This document shows positions 22,101-25,100 of a stretch of DNA of 64,000 nt, piece after piece. Positions within the stretch are counted from its first letter, which is position 1; every line of letters starts with the position of its first letter. Where the stretch lies: assembly GCF_030013205.1 (NCBI RefSeq), contig NZ_CP122648.1. The stretch is one strand, 5' to 3'. The position numbers are program-made. Source of the DNA: Escherichia coli. Lineage in GTDB: Bacteria > Pseudomonadota > Gammaproteobacteria > Enterobacterales > Enterobacteriaceae.

Positions 22101-25100
22101 TTGGTCAGTGAAATATCCAGCAGTTGCGACGCGCGTTTTGCGTCGTCATAAAACAGTTCATAAAAATCACCCATCCGGTAAAACAGCAGGATCTCGGGAT
22201 GCTGGGCTTTCAGCTTGAGATATTGCTGCATCATGGGCGTATGGGCATCGAAATTTTCTATTGCACTCATGGGGTTATGTCCGGTTCCCTGATATTAAAT
22301 GGGGTGTGATGGTTTTTATTTTCGTTGTAATCACATAAGGCGCACATGATACCGGAGTTAATCATTTCAGGGGAAGAAGCGAACGGCGAGTTCTTGATGG
22401 TGATTCCGGGAAAGATGCTGTTTTGCAGCTTTTGCGTGATGCTTATGAAGCAGGTACGCAAAATTGCGTCGGTTGAATAAACCTCCTCCTTCAGAGCCAT
22501 AGTCCCCTTTCAAATTAAGTTGTAATATAAATACACCTTAAGAGTATGGAGGCAGCATGTCCGGCAAGCGTATCTCTCGTGAAAAACTGACGATTAAAAA
22601 AATGATCGATCTTTATCAAGCGAAATGCCCGCAGGCGTCAGCGGAGCCGGAGCATTACGACGCGCTGTTTGCCTACGCGCAAAAGCGGCTGGATAAATGT
22701 GTGTTCGGCGAAGAGAAACCAGCCTGTAAGCAGTGTCCGGTGCACTGTTACCAGCCTGCAAAGCGTGAAGAGATGAAACAGATTATGCGTTGGGCCGGGC
22801 CGAGAATGCTGTGGCGTCATCCGATCTTAACCGTGCGTCATCTCATCGATGACAAGCGTCCGGTGCCGGAGTTGCCAGAAAAATATCGTCCAAAGAAATA
22901 AATCTGCCGGAGAGCCATACTCTCCGGCAAATAAGGCGTTTACGCTTTGGTGGCAATCAGGATGGCTGATGCTTTGATCAATGCAATAACGCGCGAGCCA
23001 GTGGTGAGTTTCATTTCATCCTGACTTTCATTTGTTACCACTGCCACAATTTCAAAACCCGCATCCGTTTTGATATGGACAGTGGCGTTCACTGCGCCTT
23101 CGGTGATTGTCGACACGCTGCCAGCAAACTGGTTGCGAGCAGAGAATTTCAGTCCACAGTCTTCCGTTGCCAGCGTTACCCACGGGGCTTTAATCAGGGC
23201 AATCGCTTCTTTCCCTTTCGCCAGACCCAGCGCTTGCTGGCTGCTGTGAGTCACAATTGCCACCAGCTTTGCACCACCTGCCAGCGTCAGTTCTACTTCA
23301 TCATTCACAGCGCCCATTGCTACTGCGCTAACTGTTCCGGTTAATTGATTTCTTGCTGAAACTGCCATACTGCCTCCTTTCATTGAATGTTGATCGAGTA
23401 TAACCACATCTGTTAAATCAATGCCGATTTATCAATTCCAAGCCGCTTCATCCGTGACAGCAGGGTCGTGCGTTTCAGCCCCAGACGTTGCGCAGCGCCT
23501 TTAGGCCCGGCAACCACGCCGTTGGTTTCTTTCAGCACGCGAACAATCAACTGATATTCATCTTCGCCCTCCTGGGCGACAACCGTTGCGGCGGGCGGCG
23601 TTTCTGGTTCCGGTAAAACAATATCTGGCAGTGACAGCTGCAGCACGTTGCCGCGTGTTAGCAATACCGCGCGCTCAATGACGTTTTCCAGTTCGCGTAC
23701 GTTACCCGGCCACTCCATGTTGCTCAGGATGCGCAGCGTCTCGGCAGGAATGCTGTCGATATTGCGCCCCAGACGACGGGCAATTTTGAAGGTAAAGGCT
23801 TTCGCCAGCAGCGGAATATCTTCCGGACGCTCGCGTAGTGGCGGCAGGTGAATCGGGAATACGTTCAGGCGGTAATAGAGATCGCTACGGAACTCACGGT
23901 CGGCGACCATTTTTTTCAGATCGCGGTTAGTTGCGGCGATTAGACGCACGTCCGTCTGAATGATTTTGTTGCTGCCGAGACGTTCAAACTCCTGTTCCTG
24001 TAATACACGCAGCAACTTCGGCTGTAACTCCAGTGGCATATCGCCCACTTCGTCGAGGAACAGGGAGCTTTTATCCGCCAGTTCAAAACGACCAATGCGC
24101 TGGGCGCTGGCACCGGTAAAAGCCCCACGCTCATGACCAAACAGATCGCTCTCCAGCAATCCGGCAGGCATCGCCGCGCAGTTCATTTTGACCATGCGGC
24201 GATTATTACGCCCACTGAGATTATGGATCGCGCGGGCAATCAGCTCTTTACCTGTACCAGTTTCACCGAGAATCAGCACGGTACTGTCGCTTTGCGCCAC
24301 CATTTCAACTTGTTTAAGTACGCTGTACATGGCTTCGCTGCGGCCAATAATCTCGCCAAATTCACTATCAACATTGTTGAGCTGCTCGGTCAGGGCGAGG
24401 TTTTCATCAACCAGCCGTTCTTTCAGACGATGGATTTCCTGATAGGCGAGGGCGTTATCGACAGCGATTGCCACACGTTCGGCAATCTGGCGCAGTAAAT
24501 TCAGATTGGTAGTGGTAAACACTTTCTCTTCGCATTGCGCCAGTTTCAGCACGCCCAGCATGGTGTCGCCAGACATCAGCGGTAACAGGCACAAGGTTTG
24601 AATCTGGTTGCCCCAGGTGTCGAACAACATACGTTCATAGGGGGCTAAATCGTCCCGCTCGTGGAGATTAATCAACAGCATCTCTTTACTTTTGAAGACG
24701 CGTTCGGTGAGGGTTCCGGCTTCATCGACTTCGCTCTGTTCGTGGGCGGGATGCTGTTTATCAAGATAGTGAGTGGAGTAGATGTTGAGTTTGTTTTTAC
24801 GGTGGCTGCGTAAGACGATGCTGATATCGTCAATGTCGAAGTAGTAATGGATTTCTTTGGCGACTTCGCTGACCAGTTCGTCCATATCCAGGCGGGAAAG
24901 CACCGCGTTGGTAATGGCAACCAGGATGCGGAAGTTATCGCGTTCCCGGCATAACAACTCATAGTCGACATTGTTAACGACGCGACTCTGGATTTGTTCG
25001 GTGACGACAGAAACGATCTGCGTAAATGTTTGCAGACGATTGAACTCTTTTTCGCTCCAGGGGCGATCGTCATAACGAATAAATTCACAGCCACCAAAAA

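What the first reader, a model, noticed from the sequence alone, without database searches (positions are those of the whole stretch)
22940..23368. Tandem-TOBE Mop-like gene inserted between ygbA and fhlA
A 142-aa protein made of two TOBE (molybdate-binding, Mop-type) domains sits immediately downstream of fhlA; I do not recall a gene at this position in K-12. Formate hydrogenlyase depends on a molybdoenzyme and its regulation responds to molybdate, so a molybdate-binding or storage protein here would be functionally coherent and may be an accessory addition to the regulon.
Basis: partly seen in the sequence, partly recalled or inferred. Interest (0 to 1): 0.4.

Follow-up and report, generated by a model that had tools for sequence, protein, structure and literature searches.

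The report
ModG-like molybdate-binding gene after fhlA
This is a real, intact gene for a small two-domain molybdate-binding protein of the ModG type; it is an old, already annotated neighbour of fhlA across enteric bacteria that the K-12 lineage of E. coli lost by deletion, so it is not an insertion.

Summary
Window 22940-23368 (- strand) encodes a 142-aa protein made of two Mop/TOBE domains and nothing else. It lies between the fhlA stop codon and a bidirectional terminator shared with ygbA.

It is a ModG-type "molbindin":
- 49% identical over its full length to Azotobacter vinelandii ModG.
- The predicted fold superposes on ModG structure 1H9J (TM 0.95, rmsd 1.3 A).
- Both domains keep the oxyanion-ligand residues.
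- It is under strong purifying selection (dN/dS 0.03-0.09).

K-12 does lack it, but the "inserted/accessory" reading has the polarity wrong. The order hypE-fhlA-gene is conserved in 36 of 49 related loci from at least 11 enterobacterial genera, including E. albertii. In E. coli the gene is in 1892 of 5426 complete genomes, including CFT073 with the identical protein. A further 3505 genomes share one K-12-type deletion junction.

RefSeq already annotates it (WP_000301062.1, "TOBE domain-containing protein"). A 2020 paper noted it at this locus but mislabelled it "modE".

The most likely function is cytoplasmic molybdate/tungstate buffering, possibly serving the formate hydrogenlyase system. That role is inferred, not shown. 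Overall this is ordinary and of low to moderate interest.

The parts
22940..23368 (-). CDS of the ModG-like di-Mop molbindin (142 aa plus stop). The protein is identical to RefSeq WP_000301062.1.
   Evidence: ORF. TOBE x2 and Mop x2. 49% identity to ModG. AF2 pLDDT 95.8 and TM 0.95 to 1H9J. dN/dS 0.03-0.09. Annotated in the near-identical strain and in CFT073.
23162..23368 (-). Mop/TOBE domain 1 (about aa 1-69). Ligand positions are S4, R6, A20-V21-N22, T40, S43, K60, A61.
   Evidence: Pfam stretch 4-66. Invariant or near-invariant columns. Ligand list for Tub/Mop/ModE-type sites from PMC11980592. Positions assigned by the internal repeat (offset 72) and by the alignment to ModE and ModG.
22943..23149 (-). 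Mop/TOBE domain 2 (about aa 74-142). Ligand positions are S76, R78, A92-V93-N94, T112, S115, K132, A133.
   Evidence: Residue-by-residue alignment to Tub (9BEB), MopII and ModG. Conservation.
23373..23379 (-). Shine-Dalgarno sequence AAGGAGG, 4 nt before the ATG.
   Evidence: Read from the sequence. A GGAG-type SD is present in 47 of 50 sequences (window plus 49 orthologous loci).
23397..23402 (-). Conserved -10-like hexamer TATACT in the 44-nt fhlA-gene spacer. It is a candidate internal promoter element and is unproven.
   Evidence: G(G/T)(C/T)TATA(C/A)(T/A) sits at -34 or -46 in Escherichia, Citrobacter, Pseudocitrobacter, Pluralibacter and Kluyvera, while the rest of the spacer diverges. 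The consensus scan found no full sigma-70 promoter.
22902..22932 (.). Bidirectional intrinsic-terminator hairpin between the convergent ygbA and the ModG-like gene.
   Evidence: 14-bp stem followed by a T-run on the - strand. Inverted repeat I3. A homologous hairpin with compensatory changes directly follows fhlA in K-12.
23413..25491 (-). fhlA (formate hydrogenlyase transcriptional activator, 692 aa). It lies directly upstream on the same strand, with no terminator between it and the gene.
   Evidence: ORF and annotation. No terminator-like site between 23369 and 23412.
22557..22901 (+). ygbA (NsrR-regulated 'nitrous oxide-stimulated promoter' family, 114 aa), the convergent neighbour.
   Evidence: PF11756 at E=4e-41 and NF007716/NF007713.

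Best explanation
The gene encodes a cytoplasmic ModG-type molbindin: two tandem Mop/TOBE domains with no DNA-binding or ATPase domain. By analogy with A. vinelandii ModG, three chains would assemble into a pseudo-hexamer of Mop domains. That assembly would bind up to eight molybdate (or tungstate) oxyanions. Six would sit in buried inter-domain sites built from the S-x-R, T-x-x-S and K-A motifs. Two would sit in polar sites on the threefold axis built from the G-A-V-N loops. In this model the protein buffers or stores intracellular molybdate. The gene lies 44 nt after fhlA with no intervening terminator, and it ends at the terminator that in K-12 directly follows fhlA. It is therefore probably transcribed at least partly by read-through from the hyp-fhlA transcripts, and possibly also from a conserved -10-like element of its own. 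That would make it available under fermentative conditions, when the molybdo-selenoenzyme FDH-H and the molybdate-dependent hyc/fdhF regulon are expressed. It is an ancestral enterobacterial gene that was deleted once in the E. coli lineage that includes K-12, BL21 and O157:H7. What is shown: domain content, homology, predicted fold, conservation of ligand residues, purifying selection, synteny, and the presence/absence pattern. What is inferred: the oligomeric state, the ligand actually bound, co-transcription with fhlA, and the physiological role.
For: - Domains: TOBE x2 and Mop x2 only.
- Homology: the best solved relative is ModG 1H9J (E=5e-33 over the full length, 49% identity), followed by the di-Mop domain of ModE.
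- Fold: the AF2 model (pLDDT 95.8) superposes on ModG at TM 0.95 and rmsd 1.3 A.
- Ligand residues: those described for the type-1 sites (backbone of A20-V21-N22) and type-2 sites (S4, R6, S/T40, K60, A61) in Tub/Mop/ModE (PMC11980592) are present in both domains. They are invariant or near-invariant in 22 homologues down to 40% identity.
- Selection: dN/dS is 0.03-0.09.
- Synteny: hypE-fhlA-gene occurs in 36 of 49 loci from many genera. Islands insert downstream of the gene and never between it and fhlA.
- Transcription signals: there is no terminator between fhlA and the gene, and a strong one directly after it.
- Distribution in E. coli: 1892 of 5426 complete genomes carry it as a single chromosomal copy, and 3505 of 5426 carry one K-12-type junction.
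- Functional context: the molybdate/ModE dependence of hyc and fdhF expression is established (PMC3149613).
Against: - No binding, oligomerisation or expression data exist for this protein.
- About 65% of complete E. coli genomes, including fully FHL-proficient K-12, do without it, so any role in FHL is dispensable.
- Unlike Azotobacter modG, it is not next to modEABC, and I found no ModE operator upstream.
- In Phytobacter, one Kosakonia, one Raoultella, Serratia, Cedecea, Edwardsiella and Salmonella, the gene persists without an adjacent fhlA. The link to fhlA is therefore not obligatory.
- Sequence cannot distinguish molybdate from tungstate, and the related Tub protein binds both equally.
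Confidence: 0.68

Rival explanations
1. Regulatory partner rather than store. The molybdate-loaded di-Mop protein would signal Mo status to the FHL regulon. It could do this by contacting FhlA, or by forming mixed oligomers with the di-Mop domain of ModE. That would supply a Mo input to hyc/fdhF expression that K-12 has lost.
For: Adjacency to fhlA is tightly conserved over many genera, and insertions are always downstream of the pair. hyc/fdhF transcription is known to need molybdate, ModE and MoeA (PMC3149613). The protein is 34-36% identical and structurally near-identical to the ModE di-Mop domain through which ModE dimerises around molybdate.
Against: The protein has no DNA-binding or known protein-interaction module. 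K-12 regulates hyc by molybdate without it. The gene survives in genomes where the adjacent fhlA has been deleted (Phytobacter, Raoultella sp.) and in taxa where it lies elsewhere (Serratia). ModG in Azotobacter is described as a homeostasis protein, not a regulator.
Confidence: 0.12
2. Tungstate-directed binding protein (a 'TudG' equivalent). It would sequester tungstate, which antagonises molybdoenzyme assembly in E. coli, rather than store molybdate.
For: Mop/Tub sites bind tungstate and molybdate with similar affinity. The ModG/TudG architecture is reported as common in gut species predicted to use W (PMC11980592). The ModE di-Mop domain has also been crystallised with tungstate (1H9R).
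Against: The closest characterised relative is molybdate-binding ModG. I did not look for, and did not see, tungstate transporters or tungstoenzyme genes nearby. The neighbours all belong to the FHL system, which needs a molybdoenzyme.
Confidence: 0.12
3. Recently acquired accessory gene. It would be a small island inserted between fhlA and ygbA in some E. coli lineages.
For: The fhlA-mutS interval is a known hotspot for island gain and loss (PMC7232297). The gene is present in only about 35% of E. coli genomes. Salmonella copies sit elsewhere, next to an IS21 fragment.
Against: The position and orientation are the same in E. albertii, another Escherichia species and at least 10 other genera. 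dS to those orthologues is 0.23 and 0.36 within Escherichia, rises to about 1.0 for Citrobacter, and is at or beyond saturation for more distant genera. GC is 50.6% against 52.3% for fhlA. There are no flanking direct or inverted repeats and no plasmid copies. There is a single deletion-type junction in 3505 genomes.
Confidence: 0.04
4. Decaying, functionless remnant that is simply not yet lost in some lineages.
For: It is dispensable in most E. coli. Occasional truncated copies exist: a 125-aa form in an E. albertii record, a 29% partial match in one E. coli genome, and a frameshifted Enterobacter sp. EA-1 locus.
Against: dN/dS is 0.03-0.09, ligand residues are invariant, the full 142-aa length is kept across genera, and the SD is conserved. 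The exact protein sequence is seen on at least 1000 contigs.
Confidence: 0.03

Closest known systems
Azotobacter vinelandii ModG (PDB 1H9J/1H9K/1H9M), a cytoplasmic di-Mop molybdate-binding protein
   Same: Same architecture: about 140 aa, two tandem Mop/TOBE domains and nothing else. It is 49% identical over the full length, the predicted fold matches at TM 0.95, and both domains carry the SARN, T-x-x-S, K-A and G-A-V-N ligand motifs.
   Different: Genomic setting and probably regulation differ. Azotobacter modG belongs to the mod locus, and its expression is ModE-mediated and Mo-dependent (title of ref. 41 in PMC11980592); the locus arrangement is from my own knowledge. It is tied to nitrogenase cofactor supply. 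The gene here follows fhlA in a non-diazotrophic enteric context, and I found no ModE box. A Cys in the inter-domain linker (C71, motif EDCG) is present in all the Enterobacterales homologues aligned and absent from ModG.
C-terminal di-Mop domain of E. coli ModE (PDB 1B9M, 1O7L, 1H9S)
   Same: Same di-Mop fold (TM 0.84-0.90), 33-36% identity, and the same molybdate-ligand motif in the first Mop domain.
   Different: ModE has an N-terminal winged-helix DNA-binding domain that is absent here. The protein matches only profile positions 124-261 of 263, scoring 88 bits against a 369-bit cutoff. The second Mop domain of ModE lacks the S-x-R motif at the aligned positions (N-A-D-N instead of S-A-R-N). 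Here both domains keep it.
Single-domain hexameric molbindins: Mop (C. pasteurianum MopII 1GUG, S. ovata 1FR3) and E. limosum Tub 'tungbindin' (9BEB)
   Same: Each half of the protein is a Mop domain with 30-40% identity and matching ligand positions. The expected assembly of six Mop domains with 8 sites is the same.
   Different: Those proteins are about 70-aa single domains that form hexamers. Here two domains are fused, so a trimer would give the same assembly.
TOBE domain of ABC-transporter ATPases (ModC, WtpC, MalK, PotA)
   Same: Shared TOBE fold and weak profile matches.
   Different: There is no ATPase domain. The 'transporter' names carried by some database entries are over-extended annotations.

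Membership tests
ModG-type di-Mop molbindin | A protein of about 140 aa consisting only of two tandem Mop/TOBE (PF03459 / TIGR00638) domains | tested here: met
   Two TOBE stretches and two Mop stretches cover the 142 aa, with no other domain.
ModG-type di-Mop molbindin | Full-length sequence homology to characterised ModG | tested here: met
   phmmer E=5e-33 over residues 1-140 against 1H9J, and 49% identity in the alignment.
ModG-type di-Mop molbindin | Di-Mop fold as in the ModG crystal structure | tested here: met
   The AF2 model (pLDDT 95.8, pTM 0.87) matches 1H9J at TM 0.95/0.94 and rmsd 1.3 A over 142 columns. The fold is predicted, not experimental.
ModG-type di-Mop molbindin | Oxyanion-ligand residues present in both Mop domains (type-2: S, R, T/S, K, A; type-1: A-V-N loop) | tested here: met
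   S4/R6/T40/S43/K60/A61 with A20-V21-N22, and S76/R78/T112/S115/K132/A133 with A92-V93-N94. All are invariant or at least 90% conserved in 22 homologues. They were mapped through the Tub alignment and the published Tub ligand list.
ModG-type di-Mop molbindin | Trimeric assembly binding eight molybdates; measurable molybdate/tungstate binding | not testable with these tools
   This needs purified protein (SEC-MALS, ITC, ICP-MS or crystallography).
ModG-type di-Mop molbindin | Genetic linkage to modEABC and ModE-dependent expression (a property of the Azotobacter prototype, not of the protein fold) | tested here: not met
   The gene lies between fhlA and ygbA. There is no TAYAT-N7-TAYAT or palindromic ModE-like site in 22901-23700 on either strand.
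ModE transcriptional regulator (the label used for this gene in PMC7232297 and in some JGI annotations) | N-terminal winged-helix DNA-binding domain preceding the di-Mop domain (about 262 aa in total) | tested here: not met
   Only profile positions 124-261 of 263 of NF007957 are matched, at 88 bits against a 369-bit cutoff. The protein is 142 aa.
ModC / ABC transporter ATPase (the 'transporter' label in some records) | ABC ATPase domain N-terminal to the TOBE domain | tested here: not met
   Matches are confined to the last 60-70 positions of the ModC and WtpC profiles, at 26-49 bits against cutoffs of 285-440.
Horizontally acquired genomic islet | Absent from the syntenic site in outgroups, with atypical composition or mobility-element signatures at the borders | tested here: not met
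   It is present at the same site in 36 of 49 loci across genera. GC is 50.6% against 51-56% for its neighbours. No bracketing repeats were found. There are no plasmid copies.

The most novel reading that the evidence does not exclude
The fhlA-linked ModG-like protein is a dedicated molybdenum-status sensor or chaperone for the formate hydrogenlyase system. It would either hand molybdate to the Moco pathway for FDH-H or modulate FhlA/ModE activity. Decades of K-12 work on molybdate control of hyc/fdhF would then have been done in a lineage that deleted one component of the ancestral circuit.
Probability: 0.12. Interest if true: 0.55.

Novelty: already known. Interest (0 to 1): 0.22.

Why it matters
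The practical value is mostly corrective. The gene is annotated under inconsistent names: "transporter", "modE", "molybdate transport system regulatory protein" and "molybdopterin-binding protein". It can be called a ModG-type molbindin with good confidence.

The K-12 reference lacks it because of a deletion, so K-12 is the derived state at this locus.

If the conserved fhlA linkage reflects function, carrier strains could differ from K-12 in two ways: how they cope with molybdate scarcity or tungstate, and how they supply Mo to FDH-H during fermentation. Carriers include CFT073 and sampled genomes named ST1193, APEC O18 and O127:H6. Molybdoenzymes matter for growth in the inflamed gut and urinary tract, so this is testable and mildly relevant. 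It is not a new kind of system.

Tried and rejected
- **ModE operator:** I searched the fhlA 3' end and spacer, both strands of 22901-23700, for TAYAT-N7-TAYAT and for palindromic TATAT...ATATA. Nothing was found.
- **Sigma-70 promoter scan, 22300-23900:** zero hits. Only a conserved -10-like hexamer was seen by eye and by comparison. I could not identify a -35 or an extended -10, so the internal promoter remains a suggestion.
- **Repeats bracketing the gene:** I looked for target-site duplications and terminal inverted repeats. There were none apart from the terminator hairpin.
- **Rfam at gathering thresholds over the whole window:** only four tRNAs near 62 kb. There is no riboswitch (for example the Moco riboswitch) near the gene.
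- **Literature in the held library:** I found no experimental study of this enterobacterial protein. The search terms were ModG, molbindin, molybdenum-pterin binding protein + fhlA, WP_000301062, TOBE domain-containing protein, and molybdate-binding protein + Klebsiella. The only mention is a passing one, as "modE".
- **Edwardsiella context:** the lookup for the Edwardsiella orthologue failed because the exact sequence is not on record.
- **Phylogroups:** I did not cross-tabulate presence against E. coli phylogroup, because the tools list at most 60 rows. The phylogroup statement rests on named strains only. Present: CFT073, ST1193, APEC O18, O127:H6, and IAI39 per PMC7232297. Absent: K-12, BL21, O157:H7.
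- **The 155-aa GTG-initiated ORF (to 23407):** considered and rejected as the true product.
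Full report
**1. The observation**

The window holds an ORF on the minus strand at 22940-23368. Its ATG at 23368 is preceded by AAGGAGG at 23373-23379. It encodes 142 aa.

A longer GTG-initiated ORF of 155 aa, reaching 23407, is listed mechanically, and a few GenBank records annotate it. Orthologues from about 45 loci all begin M-x-V/I-S-A-R-N directly behind a conserved Shine-Dalgarno sequence, while the sequence further upstream diverges. The 142-aa product is therefore the real one.

Pfam detects the TOBE domain twice (E=8.8e-35). NCBIfam detects the Mop "molybdenum-pterin binding" domain twice (E=4.1e-42).

- fhlA (23413-25491, -) ends 44 nt upstream of the ATG on the same strand.
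- ygbA (22557-22901, +) converges on the gene.
- mutS lies beyond ygbA.

**2. Is it absent from K-12?**

Yes. In a K-12-type genome (O16:H48), ygbA and fhlA are separated by 36 nt and nothing is annotated between them. A pairwise alignment shows a gap of about 470 bp. It runs from just after the terminator hairpin downstream of ygbA to the fhlA stop codon, and the net length difference is 467 bp. The K-12 allele also has a different ygbA C-terminus (117 aa against 114 aa) and a hairpin with compensatory stem changes.

**3. What the protein is**

- **Sequence.** The best solved relative is A. vinelandii ModG (1H9J; E=5e-33 over residues 1-140). Next come the C-terminal di-Mop domain of E. coli ModE and then the single-domain molbindins Tub, MopII and S. 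ovata Mop. Identity to ModG is 49%.
- **Fold.** An AlphaFold2 model built on a 22-sequence alignment is confident (pLDDT 95.8, pTM 0.87). It superposes on ModG at TM 0.95 and rmsd 1.3 A, and on the ModE di-Mop domain at TM about 0.9.
- **Ligand residues.** The tungbindin paper lists the oxyanion ligands of this family. Type-1 sites use the backbone of A20-V21-N22. Type-2 sites use S4, R6, S40, K60 and A61. The paper states that these sites resemble those of ModG, Mop and ModE (PMC11980592). Residue-by-residue alignment to Tub places S76, R78, A92-V93-N94, T112, K132 and A133 at those positions in domain 2. The internal repeat places S4, R6, A20-V21-N22, T40, K60 and A61 in domain 1.
- **Conservation.** All of these columns are invariant or at least 90% conserved among 22 homologues reaching down to 40% identity. 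The second Mop domain of ModE lacks the S-x-R motif at the aligned positions. Here both domains look competent, as expected for a ModG-like trimer with eight sites.
- **Misannotations.** The protein lacks the ModE DNA-binding domain. It matches only positions 124-261 of the ModE model, at 88 bits against a 369-bit cutoff. It also lacks any ABC ATPase domain. The names "modE", "molybdate transport system regulatory protein" and "transporter" attached to it in some sources are therefore misannotations.

**4. Is it a functional gene?**

dN/dS against orthologues is 0.03-0.09 from E. albertii to Cedecea, and 0.12 for the most distant one compared, Edwardsiella. The length is fixed at 142 aa across genera. 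The exact protein is recorded on at least 1000 contigs. GC content is 50.6%, unremarkable beside fhlA (52.3%) and ygbA (51.3%).

**5. Inserted or deleted?**

A scan of one genome per species found 49 loci. tblastn with the window's HypE, FhlA, YgbA and MutS proteins gave the following.
- In 36 loci the order hypE-fhlA-gene is the same, on the same strand. These are E. albertii, another Escherichia species, Citrobacter, Pseudocitrobacter, Raoultella, Klebsiella, Kluyvera, Pluralibacter, Yokenella, Lelliottia, Enterobacter and Kosakonia.
- ygbA follows convergently in many of them.
- In Klebsiella, Raoultella and some Enterobacter, a block of about 3.5 kb separates the gene from ygbA. This is the sitABCD island described in PMC7232297. 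I saw no insertion between fhlA and the gene.
- No direct or inverted repeats bracket the gene.

Within E. coli the gene is a single chromosomal copy in 1892 of 5426 complete genomes, with no plasmid copies. The K-12-type junction is present in 3505 of 5426 genomes. Together these account for all but about 29 genomes.

Carriers include CFT073, which has the identical protein WP_000301062.1, ST1193, APEC O18 and O127:H6. IAI39 is a carrier according to PMC7232297. Non-carriers include K-12, BL21/C43 and O157:H7.

The parsimonious reading is an ancestral enterobacterial gene lost once in the lineage leading to those strains. The "insertion" interpretation is not supported.

Some lineages have moved or uncoupled the gene:
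- Phytobacter and one Kosakonia have hypE followed directly by the gene, with fhlA gone.
- One Raoultella keeps only the last ~50 nt of fhlA upstream of it.
- In Serratia it stands alone among housekeeping genes.
- In some Salmonella serovars it sits near an MsrPQ-like pair, with an IS21 fragment next to it in one of the two contigs read.

**6. Expression signals**

There is no terminator-like structure in the 44-nt fhlA-gene spacer. A strong hairpin with a T-run on the minus strand (22932-22902) follows the stop codon directly, and it also serves ygbA on the plus strand. Read-through from the hyp-fhlA transcripts is therefore expected. This is an inference.

A hexamer TATACT (23397-23402, 34 nt before the ATG) is conserved as G(G/T)(C/T)TATA(C/A)(T/A) in Escherichia, Citrobacter, Pseudocitrobacter, Pluralibacter and Kluyvera, although the surrounding spacer diverges. 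This may be the -10 element of an internal promoter. The consensus scan found no complete promoter, and I could not find a -35, so this is only a lead. No ModE-type operator was found, and no Rfam element lies near the gene.

**7. Mechanism**

The best-supported explanation is a cytoplasmic molybdate/tungstate buffer of the ModG type. Three chains would form a pseudo-hexamer of Mop domains with six buried and two axial oxyanion sites. The gene's position behind fhlA suggests that it is made when the formate hydrogenlyase system is made. The FDH-H component of that system is a molybdo-selenoenzyme. The fdhF and hyc genes need molybdate and ModE in addition to FhlA and formate for full expression (PMC3149613).

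Against a strong role, about 65% of complete E. coli genomes, including FHL-proficient K-12, do without the gene. It also persists in genomes where fhlA is not adjacent.

The rivals are:
- a regulatory partner of FhlA or ModE;
- a tungstate-directed binder;
- a recent acquisition, contradicted by the synteny;
- a decaying remnant, contradicted by the selection data.

**8. Comparison with what is known, and novelty**

The kind of protein is well known: molbindins such as ModG, Mop and Tub, and the ModE di-Mop domain. This particular gene is already in RefSeq as "TOBE domain-containing protein" or "molybdopterin-binding protein". [quoted passage not shown] I found no experimental work on it in the held library.

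This analysis adds three things:
- the correct family assignment (ModG-like, not ModE and not a transporter);
- the polarity of the polymorphism (a deletion in the K-12 lineage);
- the breadth of the fhlA linkage.

The result is ordinary, with a modest testable lead.

Noticed in passing
window ~18704-19471 (within pphB, 18947-19603 by homology): An IS1-like element sits inside pphB. It has an InsA reading frame and the left end GGTGATGCTGCCAACTTACTGAT. It replaces about 290 bp of the gene relative to the otherwise near-identical strain CFSAN018748, and the pphB ORF stops after 52 aa.
   Followed up: partly
window 37423-37734 (+) and 37731-38150 (+): A HigB-family toxin gene and an HTH antitoxin gene lie between hycI and ascB, as annotated in the near-identical strain. 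I did not check whether K-12 has them at this site.
   Followed up: no
window ~16085-18906 (rpoS-mutS variable region): A MarR-family regulator and the non-oxidative hydroxyarylic acid decarboxylase subunits B, C and D occupy the rpoS-pphB interval. CFT073 instead shows ygbI next to pphB. This is a further presence/absence difference in the same neighbourhood.
   Followed up: no
window 22346-22480 (+): A 44-aa ORF between mutS and ygbA is annotated by PGAP as 'hypothetical protein' in both K-12-type and window-type genomes (WP_000611932.1 and WP_000611937.1). It lies in the ygbA promoter region, and its reality is untested.
   Followed up: no
window 22890-22935 against L001 1995-2046: The K-12 allele differs beyond the deletion. 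ygbA ends ...PKKPHE* (117 aa) there, instead of ...PKK* (114 aa) here and in outgroups. The terminator stem carries compensatory G/C swaps. This suggests that the event replaced the ygbA 3' end and hairpin as well.
   Followed up: partly
L035, L040, L047 (Phytobacter, Kosakonia sp. S29) ~5870-6000; L014 ~5950-6018: In these genomes fhlA has been removed, but the ModG-like gene is kept directly after hypE (Phytobacter, Kosakonia sp. S29) or after a ~50-nt relic of the fhlA 3' end (Raoultella sp., L014). The gene and its immediate upstream region therefore survive loss of fhlA.
   Followed up: partly
L052/L053 (Salmonella enterica contigs) 4025-6429: Salmonella copies of the gene (89% identical) are not next to fhlA. 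They sit beside a TetR regulator, a DUF417 gene and an MsrPQ-like molybdoenzyme pair (Oxidored_molyb + Ni_hydr_CYTB). One of the two contigs read also has an IS21 IstB fragment next to the gene. This suggests relocation in a subset of serovars.
   Followed up: no
window 61928-62513 (+): A cluster of four tRNA genes is the only Rfam gathering-level hit in the window.
   Followed up: no
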